Positions 554 through 63,290 of a stretch of DNA of 64,000 nt are shown here, piece by piece. A program made the position numbers and the translations under genes. The notes beneath the pieces were generated by a model, which was not told the DNA's origin, made no database searches, and saw only the letters and a list, made by a program, of their open reading frames with translations. The DNA comes from Acidimicrobiia bacterium. GTDB lineage: Bacteria > Actinomycetota > Acidimicrobiia > Spongiisociales > UBA11373. The number at the start of each line of letters is the position of its first letter. Within the stretch, counting starts at the first letter, position 1. Where the stretch lies: NCBI GenBank assembly GCA_040878325.1, contig JBBDMM010000018.1:83083-147082 (forward strand), written 5' to 3'.

Positions 554-569
554 GAGTCTCCAGCCTCCA

Positions 570-675
570 GTCCCCAGTCAAGAGCGTCCTCCTCCGCCGT
601 CCTCGGCGGGGGAGGTGGCGCCGCCGTTTCGGCGGTGACGGAGGGGGCACTGAGACAGCGTGCGGCCCAACGCGG
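570..675. repeat. Copy 1 of dispersed ~95-nt GC-rich multi-hairpin element (+ orientation), 3' of rplS
   Basis: The core aagagcgtcctcctccgccgtcctcggcgggggaggtggcgccgccgtttcggcggtgacggagggggcactgagacagcgtgcgg is shared with copies at 25384, 35752, 35862(rc) and 63191(rc). It contains inverted repeats cctcctccgccg/cggcgggggagg and gccgccg/cggcgg. Confidence 0.55.
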
Positions 676-746
676 TTTCGCCCTTCGCCTTTCGCTCCTC
701 TTGACTCTTGAATCTTGAGTCTCCAGACCACCGCTACCGTCTCGCC

Positions 747-1469: not shown

Positions 1470-1670
1470 TCGGCCGCCTCTGGCGGCCTCCCGCAATTCG
1501 CAAATCGCAATTCGCAATTCGACAGAACCCCGAACGCTTCCTTTAGGGATTGCTCGAATCTTGCGGATGGCGGATGGTGGATGGCGGAAGGCGGAAGGCC
1601 GTCCTGCTGGCGACTGGAGACTGGTGACTGGCGACTCCTCTCCTGTCACCCCCACCTGATATTGATGTCC
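1470..1670. repeat. Tract of degenerate tandem repeats phased at 7 nt (gcaattc x4, gcggatg/gcggaag x5, gactggn x4)
   Basis: Direct reading gives gcaattc gcaaatc gcaattc gcaattc ... gcggatg gcggatg gtggatg gcggaag gcggaag ... gactgga gactggt gactggc gactcct. A single 7-nt phase is held over about 170 nt. Confidence 0.7.
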
Positions 1671-2494: not shown

Positions 2495-2719
2495 GTGATG
2501 CATTCGCGCGGACTCGAACCCGAGATCGTCACGCCCGTGCAGCCGTATGCGGCGCGGAAGCGTTACGTGTGCCCGGGCTGTGAGGGTTTCGTCGAGCCGG
2601 GGGAGGGGCACCTGGTGGTGGTCCCGGAGGATTGGCCCGATCTCCGCCGCCACTGGCATCGCGCCTGCTGGCATCTCGAGCAGCGCCGCCGCCATGGCCG
2701 GCCGCCCGAGACGGAGTAG
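2495..2719 (+). CDS. Hypothetical small Cys/His-containing protein (CPGC...HRACWH), possible zinc ribbon
   Basis: 74-aa ORF in a non-repeat, lower-GC stretch. No family recognised. Confidence 0.3.
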   Translation: MMHSRGLEPEIVTPVQPYAARKRYVCPGCEGFVEPGEGHLVVVPEDWPDLRRHWHRACWHLEQRRRHGRPPETE

Positions 2720-2830
2720 AGCGATACGCGATAAGCAATTCGCGATACGACGAAAACCTGCCAAGCGCGGGCAGCGCCGGCTTGCGCTCTTTCTGGCTGG
2801 AGCCGGAGCTGGAGCCGGAGCTGTTCAACC
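2720..2830. repeat. Repeat tract phased at 7 nt (gcgatac gcgataa gcaattc gcgatac; ggagcc/ggagct x4)
   Basis: Seen directly; same architecture as the other spacers. Confidence 0.6.
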
Positions 2831-8054: not shown

Positions 8055-8320
8055 GAAGTCGCCAGTCTCCAGCCTCCAGCCTCCAGCCTAAGAACCGGCT
8101 CCAGCTCCGGCTCCAGCCAGAAAGAACCGGCCTTCCGCCTTCAGCAAGAAGACCTTGGTCCGGGTTTCGCTTTTCGCCTTTCGCATCCTGAATTCCGCCT
8201 CTCGCGAGTCGCACGCTCGCAACTCGCCCACTCTCCACCCGCCGTCGTATCGCGTATCGCGAGTCCCGTATTCAGCATTGCGGGTTGGGGATTGCTGGCC
8301 TCTACACTCCACTCCAATCA
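8055..8320. repeat. Repeat tract phased at 7 nt filling the sigma-rpsB spacer (ccagcct x3, ccggctccagct x2, ttcgctt/ttcgcct, cgcctct cgcgagt cgcacgc...)
   Basis: Seen directly; the 7-nt phase is maintained across about 250 nt. Confidence 0.65.
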
Positions 8321-10518: not shown

Positions 10519-11070
10519 GTGATCGACGAGCTACTCCGCGAAGCCGAAGCAAAGATGCATCAGGCGATCGAGCACGTCCGGGGCGAGTTCGGTTCGGTGC
10601 GAACCGGTCGGGCGAATCCATCGATCCTCCACCGGGTGCACGTGGATTACTACGGCACGCCAACGCCTCTGCAACAGCTCGCCTCGGTCTCTGTTCCCGA
10701 ATCCCAGCTGCTCGTGATCGCTCCCTACGACCGGGGGTCGCTCGGTGAGATCGAACGGGCCATTCAGTCGTCAGGCCTGGGGTTGAACCCATCGAATGAC
10801 GGGACCGTGATCAGGCTGTCGTTCCCGCCACTCAACGAGGAACGGCGCCGGGAATTGATCAAGGTCGTCCGCCACATGGCGGAGGAGGGGCGGGTTGCCA
10901 TCCGCAACATACGCCGCCACACCAAGTCCGATCTCGAAGCACTCGAAGGCGAGGTGTCGGAGGACGACGTACGGCGGGGAGAGGCCCGCCTCCAGGAGAT
11001 CACCGACGGTCACACGAGTCGGATCGACGAGCTGCTCGAGCACAAAGAGGCCGAACTGCTGGAGGTGTGA
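10519..11070 (+). CDS. frr: Ribosome recycling factor
   Basis: VIDELLREAEAKMHQAIEHVRGEFGSVRTGRANPSIL. GTG 10519 is preceded by an AGGAGG RBS. The ORF-track start at 10414 is an upstream in-frame extension. Confidence 0.9.
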   Translation: MIDELLREAEAKMHQAIEHVRGEFGSVRTGRANPSILHRVHVDYYGTPTPLQQLASVSVPESQLLVIAPYDRGSLGEIERAIQSSGLGLNPSNDGTVIRLSFPPLNEERRRELIKVVRHMAEEGRVAIRNIRRHTKSDLEALEGEVSEDDVRRGEARLQEITDGHTSRIDELLEHKEAELLEV

Positions 11071-13721
11071 GCCCCGGCAGGCGAGGAGGCGGCGTGAGCG
11101 ACAGGGGAGACAACGACTTTCAGCCCCATCCGGGCGACCCCTGGCATCCCACGTGGGATAGCGCATACGCTGTCGATCGGCCCGTCGATGCTCCCGAAGC
11201 GGATGAGTCCGACCCGGACGGATCTGCTTCCGGAAAGACCAAGCGGGCAAAGCGCGGTCGCCTTGGACGTCGTCGCAAGGATTCCCCGGCTGAGGCGGCA
11301 AGTGACGTCGAAGAGGAGTCGATCGACGATCCGACCCGCGGTGAGGTCGACTTCGATCTCCCGGCGGCGCCGGTAGCCGAGCCGCCGACCGAGGACCGCG
11401 CCCCACTTCCCGCCTGGCTGGCTGAGTCCGGGCCCGACTCCCCGGCCGCACCCGCGCTCGAGGTCGAATTGCCGTCGTGGGTCGGCGGCGCGACTGCCGG
11501 TGCCGATGACGCCGGTGGCGAGTTCCCCGATCAGGTCTTCGACGACCAGGACGAAGGCGACGACGAGTTGGACGACGGAATCAGCGCGCCGGCCGCGGTC
11601 GAGGCATCGGACGAAATTGCGTCGGTACCCCCTCGTGAAGTTCCCGATGACCTGGCGGCGGTGCTCGACGCGCTCGGCGACGACGGCGACGAGATCGAAG
11701 TCCTCGCGGTGGAAGCCTTCGAAGTCGAAGCCGAGGAAGAGGATCCGGAGGAGTTGCCCGATCTCGAGTCACTCGTCGGAGCAGTCGGCGGCTTCCAGGA
11801 CCCCTCGCCCGAGGACGCCGCGGCTCGCTCCGAGTACGGGGTTGCCGGGCGGGATGCGTTCGATGCGCTGAAAGACCCCGATGGATCCGATGACCTCGGC
11901 GACTGGCATCAGTTTGCGGGAGCCACCGGCGACGAGTCGGAGACGCTGCCCATCGAGGTGGTGGTTGATCCCCCGGTGCCTGAGCCGCGCGAAGGTGGGA
12001 AGCGCGGTCGTTGGTTCCGGCGCAAGGTCGAGGAAGCCGACGAGTCGGAGGTCGTCGCCGAGGAGGCGGCCGATTGGGCCGATGACGGCACTGCGATTCC
12101 GGCGGGATGGTTCGCCGAGATCGACGAAGACACCGTGGTCACGCCCCCGGTCGAGCCCCCCGACACCGAGTATCCGGAACCCGACGAGATAGTCGCGGTG
12201 GCGCCGACCGACCTCGGGTCGGATGAGGTCGAGGAGTTGCCGGTGGCGCTGGCGCCGGGGGATTGGTCGGATGAGGTCGAGGAGTTGCCGGCGGCACCGG
12301 TGGCGGGGGATTGGTCGGATGAGGGTGAGGAGTTGCCGGTGGTGCCGGTGGCGCCGTTGGATTGGTCGGTTGAGGGGGAGGTGCTGCGTTCGAATCTCCC
12401 TGCCGCGCCGCAGCCGGGACTCTTCGACGACCGGCATGCCACGGAGGAGTTCGATCCTATCGCTGCAGGCATCGGTGGGGTCGCTCCCGACATTTCCGCA
12501 ACCCCGGATTGGGAAGACGACCGGGCCGGGGAAGCACCAGTGGCGCAAGGGTTAGCCCCCCTGGGCTTCGACGACGGTGAATCGGCCGGTCACGACGAGG
12601 AGCTCACCTCGGACGAGGATGACGAGGGATACGAAGACCGCTGGGTGACTGGCCCCATCGATCTCGGCGGCGAGTACCTCGGGGCGGCCGATGACTCTGG
12701 CGCCTACGAGTCCATCGACGAACTCGACGACGCCACCTATCGGACCTCGTCGACGACCGAACACCGCGGCCTCGCCGAGGAGATCGCCCTCACGGGCGAC
12801 GAGGAGCACGAATGGCAGGCAATGGCCGCGGCGATGCCCGGGGTCGAATCGGGCGTGGTCGGTTTCGAGGATGTGGCCGACCTCGGCGACGACGAGGAGT
12901 ACCTCGATACCAGGGTGCGGTCGGATTTGGGCACCCGGATCCTCACCGGAGTCGTGCTCGGCGGCTTCTTCCTCGGCTCGCTGTGGGTCGCCCCCGAAGC
13001 CCTGGCGGGTTTCATCGCAATCATCCTGCTGCTGGGACTCGGTGAATTCTTCGCAACCGTGCGCCGACGCGGCTGGCGGCCGCTGGCCCTCTTCGGATTT
13101 CTGGGCGCCATCTCGATGCTGGCTACCACCTGGTTCCATGGCCCGATCGCTGTCGCCGCCACGCTGGCGATGACGACGGTCGTGACGTTCTTTGTGTTCG
13201 CCTTCTCGCCGCTGCGCCGGGATGCGCTGACCAACGGCGGTCTCACCGTTCTCGGCCTGGCGTGGGTCGTCGGCACCGCGGCGTTCGTGTACCCGATCCT
13301 GGCCAACGAGGACTATCGGGTCCTGGTGATTGCCATCGTCGTCGTGACCGCAGCCATGGACATCGGCGCATACGCCGTCGGTCGGGCGTGGGGGGTTCGC
13401 GCGCTTGCGCCCGTCCTCTCCCCGAACAAGTCGGTGGAGGGCCTGGTCGGAGGGATCGGCTTGTGCATGCTCGCCGCAGCCGCCGTGGGCAACTTCCTCG
13501 AGCCATTCGACCTGCTCTCCGGCATCGGGTTGGGGATCGTCGTGGTATTCGCCGCGCCCCTGGGCGACCTGGCCGAATCGATGTTCAAGCGAAGCCTCGG
13601 AGTGAAGGACATGGGGTCGATCCTCCCCGGGCACGGCGGAATCCTCGACCGGGTCGATGCCCTCCTCTTCGTGATTCCTGCAGCGTGGGCGTTCTATCAG
13701 ACCGTCGGGTTCCTGGGGTGA
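11067..13721 (+). CDS. cdsA: Phosphatidate cytidylyltransferase (CdsA) with ~590-aa acidic low-complexity N-terminal extension
   Basis: The C-terminal ~290 aa is canonical CdsA (multiple TM helices, SVEGLVGG...AESMFKRSLGVKDMGSILPGHGGILDR). The N-terminal part is D/E/P/A-rich with DWSDEVEELP repeats. The frame is continuously open from GTG 11067, which overlaps the frr stop. The true start is unverified. Confidence 0.75.
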   Translation: MSPGRRGGGVSDRGDNDFQPHPGDPWHPTWDSAYAVDRPVDAPEADESDPDGSASGKTKRAKRGRLGRRRKDSPAEAASDVEEESIDDPTRGEVDFDLPAAPVAEPPTEDRAPLPAWLAESGPDSPAAPALEVELPSWVGGATAGADDAGGEFPDQVFDDQDEGDDELDDGISAPAAVEASDEIASVPPREVPDDLAAVLDALGDDGDEIEVLAVEAFEVEAEEEDPEELPDLESLVGAVGGFQDPSPEDAAARSEYGVAGRDAFDALKDPDGSDDLGDWHQFAGATGDESETLPIEVVVDPPVPEPREGGKRGRWFRRKVEEADESEVVAEEAADWADDGTAIPAGWFAEIDEDTVVTPPVEPPDTEYPEPDEIVAVAPTDLGSDEVEELPVALAPGDWSDEVEELPAAPVAGDWSDEGEELPVVPVAPLDWSVEGEVLRSNLPAAPQPGLFDDRHATEEFDPIAAGIGGVAPDISATPDWEDDRAGEAPVAQGLAPLGFDDGESAGHDEELTSDEDDEGYEDRWVTGPIDLGGEYLGAADDSGAYESIDELDDATYRTSSTTEHRGLAEEIALTGDEEHEWQAMAAAMPGVESGVVGFEDVADLGDDEEYLDTRVRSDLGTRILTGVVLGGFFLGSLWVAPEALAGFIAIILLLGLGEFFATVRRRGWRPLALFGFLGAISMLATTWFHGPIAVAATLAMTTVVTFFVFAFSPLRRDALTNGGLTVLGLAWVVGTAAFVYPILANEDYRVLVIAIVVVTAAMDIGAYAVGRAWGVRALAPVLSPNKSVEGLVGGIGLCMLAAAAVGNFLEPFDLLSGIGLGIVVVFAAPLGDLAESMFKRSLGVKDMGSILPGHGGILDRVDALLFVIPAAWAFYQTVGFLG
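12215..12386. repeat. 48-bp tandem repeat x3.5 inside the cdsA N-terminal extension (encodes DWSDEVEELPxxPVAx)
   Basis: gattggtcggatgaggtcgaggagttgccggyggcrccggtggcgsss repeated head-to-tail. Confidence 0.8.
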
Positions 13722-19306: not shown

Positions 19307-19652
19307 GTTCGTCAAGATCGGATCGCCAGTCGTCTTCCATTCCCCCACCTCACGCAACAGAGGTCAAGACCGATTTGCCACCCATCGCCCTCCGGTGGCG
19401 AGGACTCGGAAGTTGGCCTCGCTGAGGATGTCGATCGTCTGCTCCCTGACGCGTTCCCACGTGTGCCGCAGGGTGCCGCCGACCTCCAGCGATCATCCCT
19501 CGCCGAGTCGGTCGCCGAGGTCTGAAAGCGCTCCCCGGAGAGTCCCCCTTGCGGGAGGCGGGAGGCGTGGCCATGGCCCAAGGCGGCCGGGAGCCGCCAG
19601 AAGGCGGAAGGCCCTCTTGCTGGAGACTGGAGACTTCCTATCCTCGCCTCTC

Positions 19653-21365
19653 ATGCGATGGTCACGCGCCTTCATTCCCACGCTTCGGGAGGATCCGACC
19701 GACGCCGAGTCGGCCAATCACCGGTTGCTGGTGCGCGGCGGCTTCATTCGGCGGCTGATGGCGGGGTCGTGGTCGCTGTTGCCGCTCGGCAAGCGGGTCG
19801 CCGACAAGGTGGAGCGGATCATCCGCGAGGAGATGAATCGCATCGGCGGCCAGGAGATGCTGCTCCCGGTGGTACACCCCGCCGATCCCTGGAAGAAGAC
19901 CGGCCGCTGGGACGACGTCGAGGGCATCGTGGTGAAGTTCCAGGATCGCAAGGAGAGCGATCTGCTCCTGGCGATCACCCACGAGGAGATCTTCACGCTG
20001 ATCGCCGCGGAGCTCTCGTCGTACCGGCAGCTCCCGCAGCTCTGGTACCACCTGCAGACCAAGTTCCGTGACGAGCCCCGGCCCAGGGGAGGCCTCCTCC
20101 GGGTACGCGAATTCACCATGAAGGATTCGTACTCCTTCGATGTCGACCGGGCGGGCCTCGACGTGCAATTCGAGGCGCACCGCGGTGCCTACTCGAGGAT
20201 CTTCGAGCGTCTCGGGCTGGAGGTGATCCCGGTGCAAGCCTCGTCGGGGACGATGGGCGGCAAGGAGTCGGTCGAGTTCATGGTGGAGAGCGAGGCCGGC
20301 GAGGACGACATCGTGGTGTGCCCCAACTGCGGGTACGCCGCCAACACCGAACGGGCCACATCGGGGGCCCCGCCCGTCGAGGACGAGCCGTGGGAGGGTG
20401 AGCCGGCGGAGTTCGATACCCCGGGGATCCGGACTATCGCAGCCCTGGCCGACGCCTTCGACTTCGCCTCCCCCGAGCAGCAGATCAAGACGCTTGCCTA
20501 CGTCGTCGGGGGCGAGCTGACGCTGATCCTGCTTCCCGGGCACCACGAGTTGATGGAACAGAAGCTGATCGACGGCCTGGGGACGTTCGATCTCCGTCCC
20601 GCCCACGACGACGAGATCGTCGCCGCCCTCGGTGCCCACCCCGGCAGCCTGGGTGCTGTTGGAGTCCGCCACCTCCGGGTTATCGCCGACCCGGCACTGC
20701 GGGGACGCTTCAACATGGTGACCGGGGCCAACCGAGACGACTGGCACCTGCGCGGCGTAGACGTGGAGCGGGACATTGCAGTCGACCAGTGGCTCGGCGT
20801 ACGGCTCACGAAGCTCGGGGACCCATGCATTGAGTGCGGGTCGCCCGTGCAGGTGCTCCGTTCCATCGAGGTGGGCCACATCTTCAAACTCGGCACCAAG
20901 TACGCCGAGGCGCTCGGGGCGCGCGTTGTCGACGAGCAGGGCGAGGAGCGCGTCATCTGGATGGGGTCGTACGGCATCGGCGTCGGCCGCAGCGTGGCGG
21001 CGATCGTCGAATCGTCTTTCGACGACAAGGGGATCGTCTGGCCGACGGCGATGGCCCCGTACGAGGCGGTGGTGACCGTGATCAAGATGGACGACGTCCC
21101 CACCGTGGCGGCGGCAGATGCGATCTATCAGGGGTTGGGGGACGCGGGCATCGATGTGATCATCGACGACCGTGAGGAACGGCCCGGGGTGAAATTCGCC
21201 GACGCAGAACTGATCGGCATCCCGTATCGTGTGACCGTCGGCCCCAAGGGCCTGGCCTCCGGAACGGTGGAGATCACCCGACGGAGGGACGGTGTCACCG
21301 AGTCGGTGCCCGTCGACCAGGCCGTGGCGACGGTGGCCAAGGCGGTCCTGGCGGAGCGACGCTGA
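19653..21365 (+). CDS. proS: Proline--tRNA ligase (bacterial type with editing domain)
   Basis: MRWSRAFIPTLREDPTDAESANHRLLVRGGFIRRL...; class II motifs. The ORF-track start at 19101 is an upstream extension across the divergent spacer. Confidence 0.9.
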   Translation: MRWSRAFIPTLREDPTDAESANHRLLVRGGFIRRLMAGSWSLLPLGKRVADKVERIIREEMNRIGGQEMLLPVVHPADPWKKTGRWDDVEGIVVKFQDRKESDLLLAITHEEIFTLIAAELSSYRQLPQLWYHLQTKFRDEPRPRGGLLRVREFTMKDSYSFDVDRAGLDVQFEAHRGAYSRIFERLGLEVIPVQASSGTMGGKESVEFMVESEAGEDDIVVCPNCGYAANTERATSGAPPVEDEPWEGEPAEFDTPGIRTIAALADAFDFASPEQQIKTLAYVVGGELTLILLPGHHELMEQKLIDGLGTFDLRPAHDDEIVAALGAHPGSLGAVGVRHLRVIADPALRGRFNMVTGANRDDWHLRGVDVERDIAVDQWLGVRLTKLGDPCIECGSPVQVLRSIEVGHIFKLGTKYAEALGARVVDEQGEERVIWMGSYGIGVGRSVAAIVESSFDDKGIVWPTAMAPYEAVVTVIKMDDVPTVAAADAIYQGLGDAGIDVIIDDREERPGVKFADAELIGIPYRVTVGPKGLASGTVEITRRRDGVTESVPVDQAVATVAKAVLAERR

Positions 21366-25383: not shown

Positions 25384-25472
25384 AAGAGCGTCCTCCCCCG
25401 GCTTCCGGGGGAGGTGCCGAAGCGAAGCGAGGCGGAGGGGGCAGCGGAGACAGCGTGCGGTCCGACGACGGA
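25384..25472. repeat. Copy 2 of the ~95-nt GC-rich hairpin element (+ orientation), 3' of infB
   Basis: aagagcgtcctcccccggcttccgggggaggtgccgaagcgaagcgaggcggagggggcagcggagacagcgtgcggtccgacgacgg aligns to the 570 and 35752 copies. Confidence 0.55.
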
Positions 25473-25575
25473 GCCTTCTCCAGGAACCGGGACAGTCCTG
25501 CTCGCACCGATTGACTTTCTGGCGAATCGCCAATCGCCAATTGCCTTTCGCGCCGAGCAAAGCGAGGCTTCTTCC

Positions 25576-30172: not shown

Positions 30173-30215
30173 TCGCGCATTGCGCATTGCGCATTGCGCA
30201 TTGCGTATCGCGTTC
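30173..30215. repeat. gcgcatt x4 heptamer tandem repeat (then gcgtatc gcg)
   Basis: Perfect 7-nt tandem copies, seen directly. Confidence 0.8.
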
Positions 30216-33261: not shown

Positions 33262-33453
33262 ATGAAGGTTCGTTCATTCATCGCCTGCTTCCTGATCGTC
33301 ACCGCGTGTGGCGGTGGGGGTGATCCGTCGGTGCCCGCAGGGCAGGACGACGGGCTCATCACCGGAAATGTCGAGCGGTCCCAAGAGGTCGCCGACCAGG
33401 CGAGCGATCGGGAGAGCGAACTCGAACAGATCGTGGAGGACATGGGGGGATAG
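33262..33453 (+). CDS. Hypothetical small lipoprotein (signal peptide plus LIVTAC lipobox, acidic mature part)
   Basis: 63-aa ORF in a locally lower-GC segment. MKVRSFIACFLIVTACGGGG. Confidence 0.35.
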   Translation: MKVRSFIACFLIVTACGGGGDPSVPAGQDDGLITGNVERSQEVADQASDRESELEQIVEDMGG

Positions 33454-33454
33454 C

Positions 33455-33577
33455 CCCCAGCCTCCATCCTCCAGCAAGAGGCGCGCTAGTCGGGTTCTGC
33501 CTTTCGCTCTTCGCCTTTCGCATCCCATAAGGCGCTCTGTCGCGGTGCGCATCGCGCATCGCGCATTGCATTGCGCA
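33455..33577. repeat. Repeat tract phased at 7 nt (ccagcct/ccatcct, ttcgctc ttcgcct ttcgcat, gcgcatc gcgcatc gcgcatt gcattgc gcatcga)
   Basis: Seen directly. Confidence 0.6.
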
Positions 33578-33593
33578 TCGAACATATGTTCGG
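33578..33593 (+). promoter_or_regulatory. LexA operator (actinobacterial/Cheo-type SOS box TCGAAC-ATAT-GTTCGG), followed by a TAAGAT -10-like hexamer
   Basis: Perfect CGAAC-N4-GTTCG palindrome 10 nt upstream of the imuA' start. Established consensus for Gram-positive/actinobacterial LexA. Confidence 0.6.
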
Positions 33594-33602
33594 TAAGATC
33601 GA

Positions 33603-34265
33603 GTGCCCTTGGACCGGGCATCTCTTCTCCTCGCCGGCGCAACAAGTGCCCCTTCTCACGAACCGGCCGCGCCCTTCGCCATCCAGGCAGAGCCCGGCCG
33701 GGTGCTCGGCCTGGTGGGGCCCGCCGGTTTTGGGCTCACCCGTCTCGGCCTGAGCCTGCTCGCCGCCCCTTCCCTCACCGGGATGGTCGCCGTGGTCGAT
33801 GTCCGGGGCTGGTTGTGCCCGGTGGCCGCCTGGGAGGTGGGGGTCGACCCCGAGCGGCTGGTGATGGTTCGCTGCCCCGATCGTCGGGCATGGCGGCAGG
33901 TCACCGCTTCCCTCCTCGAAGGCTTTCCCGTCGTCTTCGCCGAAGTGCCCGTGGGCACCGCTGAGGCCGACCTGCGTCGCCTCGCCGCCCTGTCACGGGC
34001 GCGGCGGGCGGCATTGCTGCTTCGCCCGGTTTCGGGTGACCTCCCTGCCGGAGTGCTCCATCTGCGGATCGAGGCGACGGCGGTCCGTTGGGAGGGGGTG
34101 GACCGCGGCCATGGCGCCCTGCTGCGGCGCCACCTCACCCTGCTCGCCTCGGGCAAGGGGGCTCGGGGCATCGAGCGGGTAGTGGAGATGGAGGACGATG
34201 GCACGCACGCTGTGCGTCTGGTTCCCGGACTGGCCGTTGCGCCGTCCGGACTCGCCGCCGGATAG
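33603..34265 (+). CDS. ImuA'-like (RecA-fold/SulA-like) mutasome accessory protein
   Basis: About 220 aa with a degenerate P-loop-like GLVGPAGFGLTRLGL. It lies immediately upstream of, and overlapping, an ImuB-like gene and downstream of a LexA box. The start (GTG 33603) would make the transcript near-leaderless. Confidence 0.55.
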   Translation: MPLDRASLLLAGATSAPSHEPAAPFAIQAEPGRVLGLVGPAGFGLTRLGLSLLAAPSLTGMVAVVDVRGWLCPVAAWEVGVDPERLVMVRCPDRRAWRQVTASLLEGFPVVFAEVPVGTAEADLRRLAALSRARRAALLLRPVSGDLPAGVLHLRIEATAVRWEGVDRGHGALLRRHLTLLASGKGARGIERVVEMEDDGTHAVRLVPGLAVAPSGLAAG

Positions 34266-35658
34266 GCCCTGCCAGGTCGTCGACGACAAGGGGATGGTGG
34301 TGGCGGCCACCGCCGATGCCGTCGACGCCGGGGTCCGCACCGGCATGCGTCGTCGCGAGGCGGAGGCGCTCTGTCCCAATGCGGTCACCCTCGTGGCCGA
34401 CCCCGGCGCCGAGGCGGTGGCCTTCGAGCCGGTGGCCGTTGCCATCGAAGCCGTGGTGCCCCGGATGGAGTTGGCTGCCCCCGGCCTGGTGTTCGTGCCC
34501 GCCGCCGGGGCAGTCCACTACTACGGGTCCGAGGATGCTCTGGTGGGGAAGATGGTGGCGGCGGTGGAGGCGATGGCGCCAGGGGGCCGCTTCGGACTGG
34601 CCGACGGGCCTTTCGCCGCCCGGCTGGCCGCCGAGGCTGCAGTAGAGGAGCCCCTGATCGTCGTCGACACCGCCGCCTTCCTCGCCGGGCTGGATGTCGC
34701 CACCCTGGGGGCGGACGATCTGGTCGCCACCTTCCGGTGGTTGGGAGTAGGCACCCTCGGAGACCTCGCCTCCCTGCCCCGCGCCGCCATCGCCTCCCGA
34801 TTCGGGCCGATCGGATTGGATGCCCACCGCATCGCCAGCGGGGAGGATCGTCCGGTCGAGCCGCGACGGATCGGCGAAGAGATCGCGGTGGAAGAGGTCT
34901 TCGAGCATCCACTCGAGGACTTCGAGCGGGCATCGTTCGCGGCCCGGGGGCTGGCGGGGAGGCTCCTCGAGGCGGTGGCGCCCACCGGGGGGATGCCCCA
35001 CCGGGTGGAGGTGGAGGCCGAGTCGGCCCTGGGGGAGCTGCGCACCCGCACCTGGCGGAGTGCCCATCCGTTCTCCGAAGCGGAACTGGCCGAGCGGGTC
35101 CGGTGGCAGATCAGGGCGTGGATCGAATCGGGCGGGGTGCCCGGGGGGATCATCCGGATCCGCTTGGCCCCCGCCGACCTGTCCGACCTCGGTCGGCAAC
35201 TCAAACTGGGGGAGGACGCCGCCTCCGAGGATGATGCCCGCCGGGCCCTCAGCCGGGCCCAGGGGCTGATCGGCCCCGACGCGGTGCTCCAGGCGATGCC
35301 CCAAGGAGGACGCGACCCGGGGGAGCGGGTCCACTGGTACCGATGGGGCGAACCGCCGGGCGCCGAGGCGCGGGACCCGAAGGCCCCCTGGCCGGGAAGG
35401 CTGTCCCAGCCCTCACCCGCCCTGGTGCCCCCCGACCCGCGGCCCTTCGAAGTCGAATGGGAAGACGGCTTCCCCACCAGGGTCCGCCTGGGGAGCCGCT
35501 GGGAGCCGGTCCTCGGCTGGGCCGGCCCCTGGCGCCGGACCGGCAAGTGGTGGGAAGGTGAGCCCGCCGCCGACCGCTATCAGATCGTCACCTCCGCCGG
35601 CGCCTTCCTGTGCGAGGTGAGGGAAGAGAGGTGTTGGTTGGTGGGGGTGTATGACTAG
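34198..35658 (+). CDS. imuB: ImuB-like Y-family DNA polymerase paralogue (catalytically inactive type)
   Basis: N-terminus MARTLCVWFPDWPLRR is the hallmark ImuB/DinB-fold start. The palm/fingers region is alignable to Y-family polymerases. The gene overlaps imuA' by 68 nt. Confidence 0.75.
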   Translation: MARTLCVWFPDWPLRRPDSPPDRPCQVVDDKGMVVAATADAVDAGVRTGMRRREAEALCPNAVTLVADPGAEAVAFEPVAVAIEAVVPRMELAAPGLVFVPAAGAVHYYGSEDALVGKMVAAVEAMAPGGRFGLADGPFAARLAAEAAVEEPLIVVDTAAFLAGLDVATLGADDLVATFRWLGVGTLGDLASLPRAAIASRFGPIGLDAHRIASGEDRPVEPRRIGEEIAVEEVFEHPLEDFERASFAARGLAGRLLEAVAPTGGMPHRVEVEAESALGELRTRTWRSAHPFSEAELAERVRWQIRAWIESGGVPGGIIRIRLAPADLSDLGRQLKLGEDAASEDDARRALSRAQGLIGPDAVLQAMPQGGRDPGERVHWYRWGEPPGAEARDPKAPWPGRLSQPSPALVPPDPRPFEVEWEDGFPTRVRLGSRWEPVLGWAGPWRRTGKWWEGEPAADRYQIVTSAGAFLCEVREERCWLVGVYD

Positions 35659-35745
35659 CGGCCGCCTTCGGCGGCCAGGCGATTGGCGATTGGCGATTGG
35701 CAAGAAAGAAGAGAAGAGTCTTATCTCCTCCCGGAACCCGGAGGA
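35659..35745. repeat. Repeat tract phased at 7 nt (ggcgatt x3, then aagaaga gaagagt cttatct)
   Basis: Seen directly. Confidence 0.7.
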
Positions 35746-35751
35746 GATAAG

Positions 35752-35847
35752 AAGAGCGTCCTCCTCCGTCGTCTTCGACGGGGGAGGTGGCGCCGCCGTC
35801 TTCGGCGGTGACGGAGGGGGCGGCGGAGACAGCGGGCGGTCGGACGA
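35752..35847. repeat. Copy 3 of the ~95-nt GC-rich hairpin element (+ orientation), 3' of imuB
   Basis: aagagcgtcctcctccgtcgtcttcgacgggggaggtggcgccgccgtcttcggcggtgacggagggggcggcggagacagcgggcggtcggacgac; about 90% identical to the copy at 570. Confidence 0.6.
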
Positions 35848-35861
35848 CTTCTTCAAGAACC

Positions 35862-35948
35862 GGGTCCAGTCCCTCTCGCAGGGTCAGCCGCCCCCCCTCC
35901 CCCCTTCGGGGTACTCCCCCCGGAAGCCGGAGGGAGACGTCGGGAAGG
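35862..35948. repeat. Copy 4 of the element in - orientation (3' of recQ), forming an inverted pair with copy 3
   Basis: ctcgcagggtcagccgcccc...ccggaagccggagggag; its reverse complement contains ccggcttccgggggga, matching the 25384 copy, and the 5' end matches the 63191 copy. Confidence 0.5.
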
Positions 35949-58140: not shown

Positions 58141-58794
58141 ATGGATCGCACTGAGCGGCGTTCTCGTTCCGACCATGTCCTCGCTGGGTACGCCAGCGGA
58201 CCTGGGGCGACGAGCCGTGAGCGGGACGCCGCACTCGCTCGCTCCGAGAGCGCTCGCATGGTCATCCTCGTCGAGGGGATCAGCGATCTGATGGCTCTCG
58301 ATGCCGTCGCCCAGCGCCAGGGGCGCGACCTGGTGCAAGAGGGCATCGTCGTCCTACCCGTTGGGGGCGCACACGCTTTCGGGCGGCACCTCGAACTGCT
58401 TGGCGATCATCAAATCGGGCTGAGGTGCCTCGTCGATGAAGCCGAGGAGGCCATCGTTCGGGCTGCGACCACTGCGACTGCAGGGGTCGGGGGCGCCACG
58501 AGTCCAGTTGGGGAGCGCATCGACATGTTCGTGTGTGTCGAGGACCTGGAGCACGAACTGATCCGAGCGGTGACACCGTCGAGGGTCGGGGCGATCCTGG
58601 AGCGGGAAGCAGATCTCGGGTCGTTCCGGATTCTCCAGAAGCAGCCGGCGTGGCGTGACGGTGATTTGGTGGCGCAGCTGCGTCGATTCCTGGGAGCCGG
58701 CGCCCGCCGCAAACTCCGCTACGCCCGGCTTCTGGCTCTCGAGCTCGAACTCGGGGACGTCCCTCGTCCACTTGCCGGCGCGCTGGAGGTCTGA
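58141..58794 (+). CDS. Stand-alone TOPRIM-domain protein (OLD/RNase M5-like nuclease fold, no ATPase domain)
   Basis: MVILVEGISDLMALD (catalytic Glu), ...VVLPVGG..., acidic CVEDLEHE. The start is ATG 58141 or 58258. Confidence 0.5.
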   Translation: MDRTERRSRSDHVLAGYASGPGATSRERDAALARSESARMVILVEGISDLMALDAVAQRQGRDLVQEGIVVLPVGGAHAFGRHLELLGDHQIGLRCLVDEAEEAIVRAATTATAGVGGATSPVGERIDMFVCVEDLEHELIRAVTPSRVGAILEREADLGSFRILQKQPAWRDGDLVAQLRRFLGAGARRKLRYARLLALELELGDVPRPLAGALEV

Positions 58795-63085: not shown

Positions 63086-63190
63086 GACTGGAACCATATC
63101 ACATGGTTATGGTCGTGTCGACTAGAACATTTACGAGAGGCGATGGGCGAATCGAGAAGGGGATTGGCAATCGAGGTCTTGAAGTCGTCA

Positions 63191-63290
63191 GAGTGCTCGC
63201 AGGGTCAGCTGCCCCCTCCGCCTCGCTTCGCTTCGGCACCTCCCCCGCCCCAGGCGGCAGGGGAGGACCCTGGCCTCCCTCAACCGTCCA
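63191..63290. repeat. Copy 5 of the ~95-nt GC-rich hairpin element (- orientation), 3' of the ABC ATPase gene
   Basis: Its reverse complement contains ggaggtgccgaagcgaagcgaggcggagggggcag, matching the 25384 copy. Confidence 0.55.

What the first reader, a model, noticed from the sequence alone, without database searches (positions are those of the whole stretch)
1470..1670. Intergenic spacers are built from degenerate repeats phased at 7 nt
The lepB-DUF2469 spacer reads in one continuous 7-nt register for about 170 nt: gcaattc gcaaatc gcaattc gcaattc / gcggatg gcggatg gtggatg gcggaag gcggaag / gactgga gactggt gactggc gactcct. The same heptamer-phased architecture, using different word families (ccagcct, ttcgcct, ggcgatt, gcgcatt, cgatacg, ggagcc/ggagct), fills at least ten spacers: 541-575, 676-730, 2720-2830, 8055-8320, 19570-19650, 25476-25575, 30173-30215, 33455-33577, 35659-35745. 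Coding regions show none of it. Spacers in high-GC bacteria are not normally low-complexity at a fixed 7-nt period. This points to a genome-specific mechanism (a slippage bias, nucleoid-protein phasing, or spacer-generating recombination), or to a structural DNA feature. I do not recognise it as a described repeat class.
Basis: seen in the sequence. Interest (0 to 1): 0.75.

Follow-up and report, generated by a model that had tools for sequence, protein, structure and literature searches.

The report
Heptamer microsatellite arrays in intergenic spacers
The spacers between genes in this uncultured Acidimicrobiia genome really do carry short tandem arrays of 7-nt words, but this is a new lineage showing an already described and still unexplained bacterial repeat class (heptanucleotide simple-sequence repeats, like cyanobacterial STRRs), not a new kind of element.

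Summary
The core observation holds. The window has 18 period-7 tandem arrays, all non-coding. Lag-7 autocorrelation in spacers gives z=8.2, and no other non-triplet period behaves this way. The "continuous register" and "built from" claims are overstated: arrays are discrete 16-37 nt blocks covering 6% of non-coding bases. The feature is not genome-specific. In 1.36 Mb of related Acidimicrobiia loci, period 7 gives 67 strong arrays against 0-1 for periods 4, 5, 8, 10 and 11. Actinomycetes outgroups have 1 in 0.44 Mb. Arrays turn over fast: the orthologous lepB-DUF2469 spacer has no arrays in five relatives and different arrays in four. Two >99% identical strains differ only by a 70-nt (10x7) array indel. 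The words form a tight mutational network and recur with their flanks in other spacers, in both orientations. About 22% of arrays have an inverted partner that makes a long hairpin. One family, (CCAGYCT)n, starts 2-9 nt after stop codons in sense orientation at 8 or more different gene ends. Best reading: STRR/LSSR-type heptanucleotide microsatellites, generated by slippage and dispersed among 3'-proximal spacer regions. Why the unit is 7 nt, and whether the post-stop family is functional, remain open.

The parts
1471..1488 (+). Short GC-rich hairpin (cggccgcc-tctg-gcggcc) directly after the lepB stop codon. A near-identical hairpin follows the stop at 35659-35676.
   Evidence: Sequence read. 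Paired in the MFE structure.
1492..1521 (+). Array CGCAATT x4.3. This is the 5' arm of a predicted imperfect foldback with the array at 1563-1599.
   Evidence: TRF and scan. Fold (191 nt, -79.2 kcal/mol, z=-2.3). The sense strand folds better than the antisense strand (-35.7 vs -24.0 kcal/mol) because of G.U pairs.
1563..1599 (+). Array GCGGATG x3 followed by GCGGAAG x2 (5.3 copies in total). A variant word has been re-amplified next to its parent.
   Evidence: TRF. Sequence.
1607..1636 (+). Array GACTGGN / CTGGCGA x4.3. This is the G-rich orientation of the CCAGYCT family.
   Evidence: TRF. Family assignment.
555..579 (+). Array AGTCTCC / AGCCTCC / AGTCCCC x3.6, starting 1-2 nt after the rplS stop codon in sense orientation. 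The same array is present after rplS in L081 and L082.
   Evidence: Gene identity (L19).
677..722 (+). Arrays TTCGCCY x2.7 (677-695) and CTCTTGA x3.6 (698-722). The second is the inverted counterpart of the TCAAGAG at 575-581 that bounds the GC-rich core element.
2721..2749 (+). Array GCGATAC x4.1 (72% matches), starting 1 nt after the stop of the small gene at 2495-2719.
2788..2823 (+). Period-6/12 array GGAGCC/GGAGCT with its flank. A perfect 31-nt inverted copy lies at 8095-8125.
   Evidence: period 12 and 6. (100% over 31 nt).
8057..8089 (+). Array CCAGYCT x4, starting 2-7 nt after the stop of the sigma-70 gene in sense orientation, followed by AAGAACCGG.
   Evidence: Gene identity.
8165..8184 (+). 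Array TTTCGCY x2.9. The array plus its 'atcc' flank recurs at 33502-33525 (96%).
8246..8261 (+). Array CGTATCG x2.3, the same canonical word as the array at 2721.
19551..19567 (+). Array GCGGGAG x2.4 in the divergent spacer upstream of proS.
19620..19635 (+). Array CTGGAGA x2.3 in the proS 5'UTR, 19 nt upstream of the true ATG at 19654.
   Evidence: ProRS domains.
25525..25545 (+). Array AATCGCC x3. The array plus flank is an inverted copy (91%) of 35677-35708.
30175..30205 (+). Array GCGCATT x4.4, perfect, upstream of rpsO.
   Evidence: S15 identity.
33452..33578 (+). Three arrays in the same word order as spacer 8055: AGCCTCC x3.4 (33452-33475, abutting a stop codon), GCCTTTC x3.3 (33499-33521) and GCGCATC/GCGCATT x5 (33546-33578).
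35678..35701 (+). Array GGCGATT x3.4, perfect, following a stop-adjacent hairpin at 35659-35676.
583..662 (+). GC-rich structured 'core' dispersed repeat, interleaved with the arrays. It is a separate element family. Other copies lie at 25387-25457 (+), 35755-35836 (+), 35875-35941 (-) and 63196-63271 (-).

Best explanation
These are heptanucleotide microsatellites of the STRR / long-SSR type.

SHOWN. (i) They are tandem arrays of exactly 7-nt units, confined to non-coding DNA. (ii) They occur across a subset of Acidimicrobiia and are essentially absent from Actinomycetes outgroups. (iii) They gain and lose whole units and decay by point mutation, and variant units are re-amplified side by side. 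(iv) They sit in the hypervariable, stop-codon-proximal part of spacers, while the ~125 nt next to the downstream gene stay conserved. (v) The words of one genome are a closely related family, and arrays with their flanks recur in other spacers in either orientation.

INFERRED. Arrays grow and shrink by slipped-strand mispairing or unequal exchange during replication or repair. A lineage-specific property of the replication/repair machinery favours a 7-nt slip; this is Mrazek's polymerase-footprint idea. Loops of this size escape repair. Short array modules are copied between spacers by template switching or ectopic recombination, or by hitch-hiking with the small REP/MITE-like elements that share these spacers.

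Most arrays are probably neutral or selfish filler of 3'UTR/inter-operon DNA. Where complementary arrays pair (about a fifth of cases) they give long 3'UTR hairpins that may stabilise or delimit transcripts. The post-stop (CCAGYCT)n family may have been co-opted as a cis-element.
For: - Unit-length specificity: 67 strong period-7 arrays against 0, 0, 1, 0, 0 for periods 4, 5, 8, 10, 11 in 1.36 Mb of Acidimicrobiia loci. Outgroups have 1 in 0.44 Mb.
- Non-coding restriction: 9 of 87 arrays fall in coding sequence, which makes up 86% of the DNA, p~1e-57.
- Turnover at one orthologous spacer: no arrays and ~110 nt in L002, L003, L004, L006 and L007. Different arrays and 195-290 nt in the window, L001, L008 and L019. 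Close relatives at 91-93% mix words from a shared vocabulary.
- Whole-unit polymorphism: the only indel in 3.2 kb between >99% identical L001 and L083 is 70 nt (10x7) in a CCAAGAG/CCGAGAA array.
- Decay and re-amplification: TTGCTAA x6 perfect against 3 degenerate units, and TCTGATG x10.6 against about 1 unit, in L097/L098.
- Related vocabulary: mean nearest-neighbour distance 0.58 against 1.66 +/- 0.17. There are 25 word pairs at distance <=1 against 4.4 expected.
- Dispersed array-plus-flank copies: 25515-25546 matches rc 35677-35708, 8165-8188 matches 33502-33525, and 2788-2818 equals rc 8095-8125.
- Position: 34% of arrays in co-directional spacers start within 15 nt of the upstream stop, against 5% within 15 nt of the downstream start.
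- Foldbacks: 16 of 73 arrays have an inverted copy within 200 nt, against 1-2 for control words. Folds give z=-3.9 and -5.0 in L081 and -2.3 in the window.
- Literature: the same syndrome, and the slippage hypothesis, are described for other phyla. Repair efficiency drops for loops longer than 3 nt.
Against: - Generic slippage does not explain why 7 nt is favoured so sharply over 5, 6 and 8 nt.
- It also does not explain why sister Actinomycetota, which from my own knowledge share the MutS/L-less NucS repair background, lack the arrays.
- The (CCAGYCT)n family has strand and position specificity that neutral slippage does not predict: 11 of ~19 intergenic occurrences start 2-9 nt after a stop in sense orientation, and none do so in the opposite orientation.
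- Its CCAG core is far less variable than unit positions 5-7 (with a selection caveat).
- Arrays are confined to the housekeeping half of the window.
- Only one clean strain-level polymorphism could be found, and it comes from short-read assemblies. The pooled indel spectrum was uninformative.
Confidence: 0.55

Rival explanations
1. The arrays, or at least the (CCAGYCT)n-AAGAR post-stop family, are functional cis-elements. In this view they are multivalent binding sites in the 3'UTR RNA or in DNA for a lineage-specific protein that reads a 3-4 nt core at 7-nt spacing. The period would then be set by the protein rather than by the polymerase.
For: - Strand and position specificity at 8 or more non-orthologous gene ends in genomes as distant as 76-85% on DUF2469.
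- A conserved CCAG core with variable positions 5-7, chi-square p~6e-9.
- Many other words share a GCG core plus 4 variable nt.
- Arrays are restricted to the conserved translation/housekeeping cluster.
- MacGregor proposed regulator binding for the TAACTGA repeats.
Against: - Array presence, word and copy number are not conserved at orthologous spacers, even among close relatives.
- Arrays as a whole have no consistent strand composition: sense C-G skew +0.08, p~0.1.
- No candidate protein is known.
- Members of the CCAG family were partly picked by eye.
- Rehm et al. found no regulatory role for the analogous repeats.
Confidence: 0.2
2. The arrays are parts or footprints of small non-autonomous mobile elements, of foldback/MITE or REP/BIME type, that target gene 3' ends. 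In this view the spacers are mosaics of such modules, and the tandem structure arises at element termini.
For: - Perfect or near-perfect dispersed copies of arrays with their flanks, in both orientations.
- Inverted array pairs resemble foldback elements.
- A genome-specific GC-rich structured repeat has 5 copies in 64 kb, all sense-oriented just 3' of stop codons and absent from relatives.
- In spacer 554-707 this core is bounded by TCAAGAG...CTCTTGA x3 and sits inside an AGTCTCC array whose phase resumes on the far side.
- The linker AGAACCGG occurs 9 times against 2.8 expected.
Against: - No consistent element boundaries or target-site duplications could be defined. The candidate duplication is only 3 nt.
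- Each relative has a different word combination at the same spacer, rather than presence or absence of one element.
- Unit-wise copy-number change occurs without any element.
- No transposase or RAYT was looked for genome-wide, because only a 64-kb window is available.
Confidence: 0.15
3. The arrays act as transcription termination signals. C-rich, G-poor arrays right after stop codons would load Rho (rut-like), and inverted array pairs would act as hairpin terminators lacking a U-tract.
For: - Stop-adjacent arrays lean C-rich: mean skew +0.18, with 12 C-rich against 6 G-rich.
- CCAGYCT is 57% C and 14% G.
- Three spacers have C>G over the 80 nt after the stop, with skews of 0.23-0.32.
- Canonical hairpin-plus-T-tract terminators are not enriched in the window: 9 against 7.6 expected, and 11 against 6.8.
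Against: - There is no general C>G bubble after stop codons: mean skew -0.003 over 26 gene ends.
- Many arrays are G-rich or balanced on the sense strand.
- Arrays are short (16-37 nt) compared with a rut site of roughly 70-80 nt (own knowledge).
- Arrays also occur in 5'UTRs and divergent spacers.
Confidence: 0.07
4. The arrays are assembly or sequencing artefacts.
For: Eight of 95 arrays in related loci lie at contig ends, so repeats do disturb assembly.
Against: - Arrays are shorter than a sequencing read.
- They occur in dozens of independent assemblies made with different assemblers, including contigs from hundreds of kb up to Mb scale.
- Orthologous arrays are shared between independent samples, for example the rplS array in the window, L081 and L082.
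Confidence: 0.01

Closest known systems
Heptanucleotide long simple sequence repeats (LSSR; Mrazek, Guo & Shah 2007), including cyanobacterial STRRs (tandem heptanucleotides of Calothrix PCC 7601, Mazel 1990)
   Same: - Tandem head-to-tail 7-nt units.
- Strong excess of 7 nt over neighbouring unit lengths.
- Intergenic location.
- A few recurrent word families per genome.
- Lineage-restricted, patchy distribution.
- Function and the reason for 7 nt unknown.
   Different: - The host is Acidimicrobiia, a high-GC class of Actinomycetota. I found nothing on it in the searchable literature.
- The words differ, apart from single units such as AGTCCCC.
- Arrays here are short (2-5 copies in the window, up to 12-18 in relatives).
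- Several different words are concatenated in one spacer.
GGGAATC (Xanthomonas) and GGGGA(C/T)T (Nostoc) repeats (Rehm et al. 2015, PMC4692102)
   Same: - Non-coding bias.
- Proximity to ORF ends.
- Under-representation between divergent genes. Here the densities are 0.32/kb between divergent genes against 0.54/kb between co-directional genes.
- Occasional inverted pairs.
- Extensive length and sequence variation between close relatives.
- No function found.
   Different: - Those repeats are G3-4 tracts that form G-quadruplexes, with a preference for four units.
- The arrays here have at most GG runs or only two GGG tracts, so canonical G4 formation is not expected.
- Here there are many word families rather than one.
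TAACTGA direct repeats of marine Beggiatoaceae, some Cyanobacteria and Bacteroidetes (MacGregor 2015, PMC4679880)
   Same: - Intergenic heptamer direct repeats of 2-6 copies.
- Also found in ribosomal-protein operons.
- Suspected to be post-transcriptional protein-binding sites.
   Different: - There, a single word lies mostly within a few nt upstream of start codons.
- Here there are many words, mostly at the stop-codon side of the spacer: 34% lie within 15 nt of the stop against 5% within 15 nt of the start.
REP / BIME / REPIN extragenic palindromic repeats
   Same: - Mosaic combinations of short modules in 3'-proximal intergenic DNA.
- Both orientations occur.
- Hairpin-forming.
- Dispersed near-identical copies.
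   Different: - REPs are 20-40 nt imperfect palindromes, not tandem 7-mers.
- They are mobilised by RAYT transposases, which could not be assessed here.
- The resemblance fits the GC-rich core element better than it fits the arrays.
Phase-variation (contingency-locus) SSRs of host-adapted pathogens
   Same: Hypermutable tandem repeats that change by whole units through slippage.
   Different: - Those have 1-5 nt units (occasionally 7) inside ORFs or promoters of surface or virulence genes, and they switch expression.
- Here the arrays lie after the stop codons of housekeeping genes (L19, signal peptidase, sigma factor, IF-2).
- Copy-number change here cannot shift a reading frame or alter promoter spacing.

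Membership tests
Heptanucleotide LSSR / STRR-type repeats | Head-to-tail tandem repeats with a 7-nt unit, longer than chance expectation | tested here: met
   TRF gives 18 non-coding arrays. Lag-7 z=8.2 against dinucleotide shuffles. My stringent scan finds 6 arrays for period 7 and no non-coding array for any other period.
Heptanucleotide LSSR / STRR-type repeats | Heptanucleotide units dominate over other unit lengths of 4-11 nt | tested here: met
   67 period-7 arrays against 0-3 for periods 4, 5, 6, 8, 10 and 11 in 1.36 Mb of Acidimicrobiia loci.
Heptanucleotide LSSR / STRR-type repeats | Predominantly intergenic | tested here: met
   9 of 87 placed arrays overlap called genes, although 86% of the DNA is coding. 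None of the window's real arrays is in a CDS.
Heptanucleotide LSSR / STRR-type repeats | A limited set of recurrent words dispersed at many loci of one genome | tested here: met
   Five canonical words occur at two loci each in 64 kb. The word network is much tighter than random, nearest-neighbour distance 0.58 against 1.66.
Cyanobacterial STRR1-3 specifically | Specific heptamers and a heterocystous-cyanobacterial host. The word sequences (CCCCAGT, TTGGTCA, CAACAGT) are recalled from memory and were not verified in a held paper. | tested here: not met
   The host is Acidimicrobiia. The dominant words are different, and only isolated units or a single array in L107 (AACAGTC) coincide. That is within chance for about 90 word classes.
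G-quadruplex-forming heptamer repeats (Rehm 2015) | At least four G3+ tracts per array | tested here: not met
   1563-1599 contains only GG runs, and 19551-19567 has two GGG tracts (sequence).
REP / REPIN | 20-40 nt imperfect palindromic unit, often as inverted doublets | tested here: not met
   The arrays are direct tandem 7-mers. Only 22% have an inverted partner. The separate GC-rich core does contain a conserved 11-13 bp hairpin, but it is a different element.
REP / REPIN | Associated RAYT (IS200/IS605-like) transposase in the genome | not testable with these tools
   Only a 64-kb window of an unidentified genome is available. No exact protein match was found in the contig index.
Contingency-locus (phase-variation) SSR | The repeat lies within an ORF or between promoter elements, so unit changes switch expression | tested here: not met
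   Arrays lie after stop codons or in distal spacer parts of housekeeping genes.
Any Rfam RNA family | Match to a curated covariance model | tested here: not met
   0 hits at gathering thresholds over the whole window. Only two chance-level hits (E about 0.6-0.7), in coding sequence, at the permissive threshold over 1-36500.
Rho utilisation (rut) sites | An extended (~70-80 nt) C-rich, G-poor unstructured tract downstream of the stop codon | tested here: inconclusive
   Three of 26 gene ends have skew of at least 0.23, but the mean is -0.003. The array skew is +0.08, p~0.1.

The most novel reading that the evidence does not exclude
The 7-nt period may not be a passive polymerase footprint. It may instead reflect a dedicated, lineage-restricted activity. 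One possibility is a multimeric nucleic-acid-binding protein that reads a 3-4 nt core (CCAG, GCG) every 7 nt in 3'UTRs. Another is a repeat-adding or repeat-copying enzyme that seeds arrays right after stop codons. The (CCAGYCT)n-AAGAR module would then be a previously unrecognised gene-end signal in Acidimicrobiia. The same class of factor might explain the heptamer repeats of Nostocales, Xanthomonas and Beggiatoaceae.
Probability: 0.12. Interest if true: 0.8.

Novelty: new member of a known kind. Interest (0 to 1): 0.42.

Why it matters
Why heptanucleotides in particular dominate long simple-sequence repeats in scattered bacterial lineages has been open since the cyanobacterial STRRs (1990) and the 2007 survey.

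This window adds an independent high-GC lineage with a very clean signal: 67 arrays at period 7 against 0-1 at neighbouring non-triplet periods. It also has close relatives that lack the arrays, and a word family with a fixed position and strand relative to stop codons.

That combination makes two things testable. First, phylogenetic profiling of array-rich against array-poor Acidimicrobiia, together with the other heptamer-rich phyla, could look for a shared replication/repair or binding factor. Second, direct tests could establish whether post-stop arrays affect transcript 3' ends.

Practically, the arrays are hypervariable markers for strain typing, as STRR-PCR is in Nostoc. They are also a cause of contig breaks in MAGs.

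Tried and rejected
- Rfam search at gathering and permissive thresholds: nothing in the spacers.
- tRNA/tmRNA scan: none.
- Exact-protein contig look-up to identify the source genome: no record.
- Search for an identical strain in metagenomes to measure copy-number polymorphism at the window's own arrays: the best relative is only 92% on DUF2469 and about 75-81% at the DNA level. Polymorphism could therefore only be shown in relatives.
- Pooled indel-length spectrum across 75 alignable locus pairs: no enrichment of 7n. Nearly all alignable pairs are array-poor genomes, so this is uninformative rather than negative.
- Rho/rut hypothesis: array C-G skew and post-stop skew are both weak.
- Canonical intrinsic terminators: not enriched and not associated with arrays.
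- Sense against antisense folding asymmetry of inverted pairs: only 3 usable pairs, 2 of which favour the sense strand. Too few to conclude.
- 'Continuous register' claim: rejected as untestable between unrelated words, and contradicted by non-periodic gaps and the masking test.
- G-quadruplex reading: rejected from the sequence, which lacks G3 tracts.
- Arrays containing the stop codon itself (TAGCTGG, TGAGCTN and CAGGTAG in relatives): considered as 'three-frame stop' devices. Rejected as a general explanation because most window words contain no stop codon.
- Resemblance to the STRR words recalled from memory: judged to be within chance.
Full report
**1. What is in the sequence**

The flagged spacer (1470-1759) lies between a signal peptidase gene (lepB) and a DUF2469 gene (Pfam). 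Read from the lepB stop, it contains:
- a short GC hairpin at 1471-1488;
- an array CGCAATT x4.3 at 1492-1521;
- 41 non-periodic nt;
- an array GCGGATG x3 / GCGGAAG x2 at 1563-1599;
- 7 nt;
- an array GACTGGN x4.3 at 1607-1636;
- about 125 nt without periodicity, up to the DUF2469 ATG.

Across the window TRF lists 18 period-7 arrays, all non-coding. The one that my gene call placed at the start of proS is in fact in the 5'UTR, because the real start is the ATG at 19654.

Three independent measures confirm the period:
- Lag-7 identity in spacers is 0.316 against 0.2755 +/- 0.005 for dinucleotide shuffles, z=8.2. Lag 6 gives z=3.7, from the GGAGCC/GGAGCT 6/12-mers. Other lags give |z|<2.
- Coding DNA shows only period 3.
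- A stringent scan finds six period-7 arrays, all non-coding, and no non-coding array for any other period from 4 to 12.

Arrays cover 6.3% of non-coding bases and 4-35% of each array-bearing spacer. After masking them the residual lag-7 signal is weak, z about 1.5. 'One continuous register' across different words is not a meaningful statement, because rotation of each word is arbitrary and the arrays are separated by aperiodic sequence.

**2. It is a clade property, not a genome quirk or an artefact**

The window comes from an uncultured Acidimicrobiia bacterium. The best relatives are 91-93% identical on DUF2469. There is no exact match in the contig index.

In 135 Acidimicrobiia-like loci (1.36 Mb), arrays with at least 3 copies and TRF score of at least 40 number 67 for period 7. 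The counts for periods 4, 5, 8, 10 and 11 are 0, 0, 1, 0 and 0, and period 6 has 3. In 26 Actinomycetes outgroup loci (0.44 Mb) there is one period-7 array.

Array-rich and array-poor genomes are interleaved. L081, L082, L103, L019, L008, L048, L060, L071, L080, L097 and L098 are rich. L002-L007 and L085/L087 are nearly empty. The arrays occur in many independent assemblies, including contigs of hundreds of kb, so they are not artefacts. Eight of 95 arrays lie at contig ends, so they do break assemblies.

**3. Dynamics**

Gene order around lepB is conserved, but the lepB-DUF2469 spacer is not:
- It is 109-126 nt with no arrays in L002, L003, L004, L006 and L007.
- It is 195-290 nt with entirely different arrays, inserted 1-8 nt after the lepB stop, in the window, L001, L008 (AGATYTC x10, GATGCCT x5.6) and L019 (GTCACCC x4.4 ... 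GACGGGA x4.4).
- Among relatives at 91-93% the same spacer carries different combinations of a shared vocabulary: CGCAATT/TTGCGAA, AGCCTCC, TCCGCCT and GGCGGAT.
- The ~125 nt next to the DUF2469 start, which look like promoter and 5'UTR, are conserved.

L001 and L083 are >99% identical over 3.2 kb. Their only indel is 70 nt (10x7) within a CCAAGAG/CCGAGAA array. In L097/L098 (about 91% identical), one orthologous array is TTGCTAA x6 perfect in one genome and three degenerate units in the other. A second is TCTGATG x10.6 against about one unit.

Within arrays, variant units sit in blocks, for example GCGGATG x3 followed by GCGGAAG x2. These are the signatures of microsatellite birth, unit-wise expansion and contraction, mutational decay and re-amplification.

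**4. The arrays are not independent local inventions**

The 19 array words of the window form a mutational network. The mean rotation- and strand-invariant nearest-neighbour distance is 0.58, against 1.66 +/- 0.17 for random heptamers of the same composition. There are 25 pairs at distance <=1 against 4.4 expected, with a maximum of 15 in 2000 trials. Five canonical words occur at two loci each.

Arrays recur together with their flanks:
- 25515-25546 matches rc 35677-35708 (91%).
- 8165-8188 matches 33502-33525 (96%).
- 2788-2818 equals rc 8095-8125 (100% over 31 nt).

The order of word families is similar in spacers 554, 8055 and 33454: CCAGYCT, then AAGAR, then TTTCGCC, then GCGYATY. So short array modules are copied between spacers, in either orientation.

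They share the spacers with another repeat, a GC-rich structured core of about 75-110 nt. A covariance model finds five copies in the window. All five lie just 3' of a stop codon in sense orientation. The first hairpin shows compensatory changes. No relative has a copy. The spacers are thus mosaics, reminiscent of BIMEs, but I could not define element boundaries or target-site duplications.

**5. Position, strand and structure**

- Arrays are depleted from coding DNA: 9 of 87 against 86% coding, p~1e-57.
- They are somewhat rarer between divergent genes (0.32/kb) than in co-directional (0.54/kb) or convergent (0.58/kb) spacers.
- In co-directional spacers, 34% begin within 15 nt of the upstream stop and 5% end within 15 nt of the downstream start.
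- 16 of 73 arrays have an inverted copy (14 nt, at most 2 mismatches) within 200 nt, against 1-2 for reverse-only or complement-only control words.
- Such pairs fold into long hairpins: z=-3.9 and -5.0 for the two L081 pairs.
- In the flagged spacer, arrays 1492-1521 and 1563-1599 pair imperfectly (z=-2.3). The pairing is better on the sense strand (-35.7 against -24.0 kcal/mol).
- Arrays as a whole have no consistent sense-strand composition (skew +0.08, p~0.1).
- There is no general C>G tract after stop codons, and T-tract terminators are not enriched.

One family stands out. (CCAGYCT)n begins 2-9 nt after a stop codon, with the C-rich strand as sense, in 11 of about 19 intergenic occurrences. 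It never does so in the opposite orientation. This covers at least 8 different gene ends: rplS, lepB, a sigma factor, yraN and others. It is seen in genomes down to 76% DUF2469 identity, and is often followed by AAGAR. The CCAG core is nearly invariant while positions 5-7 vary, with the caveat that I partly chose the family members by eye.

Finally, arrays occur in 9 of 15 spacers of at least 100 nt in the first 36 kb. That half is the conserved translation/housekeeping cluster: L19, S2, ProRS, IF-2, S15 and PNPase. They occur in 0 of 10 such spacers in the accessory-gene half (Fisher p=0.003).

**6. Interpretation**

The best-supported explanation is that these are heptanucleotide microsatellites of the type described as long SSRs or STRRs.

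Shown:
- tandem 7-nt structure;
- extreme unit-length specificity;
- non-coding restriction;
- clade-level distribution;
- unit-wise polymorphism;
- rapid turnover;
- a related vocabulary with dispersed copies.

Inferred:
- generation by slipped-strand mispairing or unequal exchange, with a lineage-specific 7-nt bias. This is the polymerase-footprint idea attributed to Mrazek et al. 2007;
- tolerance because loops longer than 3 nt are poorly repaired;
- dispersal by template switching, ectopic recombination or hitch-hiking with small mobile repeats;
- an incidental or co-opted structural role for foldback pairs in 3'UTRs.

Simple slippage does not explain three things:
- why the unit is exactly 7 nt;
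- why sister Actinomycetota lack the arrays;
- why the CCAGYCT family is tied to stop codons in one orientation.

Those points keep a functional or dedicated-machinery reading alive, at roughly 0.1-0.2.

**7. Comparison with what is known**

- The heptanucleotide bias of bacterial long SSRs, the tandem heptanucleotides of Calothrix, the GGGAATC / GGGGA(C/T)T repeats of Xanthomonas and Nostoc, and the TAACTGA repeats of Beggiatoaceae are published.
- Rehm et al. list the same properties found here: non-coding location, ORF-proximal position, depletion between divergent genes, inverted pairs, variability between close relatives, and no function found.
- The arrays meet every general defining feature of that class.
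- They do not meet the specific features of cyanobacterial STRR1-3, G4-forming repeats, REP/REPINs or contingency loci (see the membership table).
- I found no report for Acidimicrobiia in the searchable library.

It is a new member, in a new host lineage, of a known but mechanistically unexplained repeat class. It has two features worth following up: the post-stop CCAGYCT module, and the sharp contrast between array-rich and array-poor close relatives.

Noticed in passing
window 583-662 (+), 25387-25457 (+), 35755-35836 (+), 35875-35941 (-), 63196-63271 (-): A GC-rich structured dispersed repeat of about 75-110 nt. It has a CCUCCUCCGCCG/CGGCGGGGGAGG hairpin with compensatory changes, a second small hairpin, and GGAGGGGG as an alternative partner. 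All five copies lie just downstream of a stop codon in the sense orientation of that gene. Two pairs are 94-100% identical over 40-70 nt. It is absent from all related loci and from Rfam. It looks like a recently amplified REP/MITE-like or terminator-like element.
   Followed up: partly
window 2788-2818 vs 8095-8125: A perfect 31-nt inverted duplicate consisting of a GGAGCC/GGAGCT 6/12-nt array plus its flank, in two unrelated spacers 5 kb apart.
   Followed up: partly
window 2495-2719: A small conserved gene (74 aa, no Pfam hit) is on the + strand here and in L001, L081, L082, L083 and L103. It is inverted (minus strand) in L003-L008, L019, L085, L087 and L107. This is a clade-specific inversion of a single gene flanked by repeat-bearing spacers.
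   Followed up: no
window 1471-1488 and 35659-35676; L001 2046-2063: Nearly identical short GC hairpins (cggccgcc-NNNN-ggcggcc) sit immediately after stop codons and are followed by heptamer arrays. There is no T-tract.
   Followed up: no
window 12217-12375: A 48-nt tandem repeat x3.2 (82% matches) inside the large ORF at 11067-13721, corresponding to a 16-aa protein repeat.
   Followed up: no
window 33454-34197 and 34198-35658: A 744-nt stretch that I left unannotated (GC 0.70, with possible ORFs at 33603-34265 or 33308-33964) precedes an IMS-family (ImuB-like Y-family polymerase) gene. It may be an ImuA'-like gene of a mutagenesis cassette. A RecQ helicase gene converges on it.
   Followed up: no
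window 63134-63175: A 19-nt repeat x2.2 (cgagaggcgatgggcgaat / cgagaaggggattggcaat) containing GGCGAT/GGCAAT motifs related to the GGCGATT array word. It is the only array-like feature in the 36-64 kb half.
   Followed up: no
L051 8117-8141, L080 2353-2385, L081 13086-13135, L103 1156-1180: In several relatives the array unit contains the stop codon of the upstream ORF (TAGCTGG, TGAGCTN, CAGGTAG). Because 7 is not a multiple of 3, such arrays place stops in all three frames within 21 nt.
   Followed up: partly
window 8091, 8123, 35856 (and 25468 variant); L081 13107: The linker motif (A)AGAACCGG recurs between array blocks, 9 times in the window against 2.8 expected. AAGAR linkers appear to be single units of the YCAAGAR heptamer family, which is amplified elsewhere (window 698-722, L001 2911-2930 and 3233).
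   Followed up: partly
window 58258-58794: A short ORF with only an OLD-like TOPRIM domain (residues 2-60). It is possibly a fragment of a defence-type nuclease gene, in the accessory half of the window.
   Followed up: no
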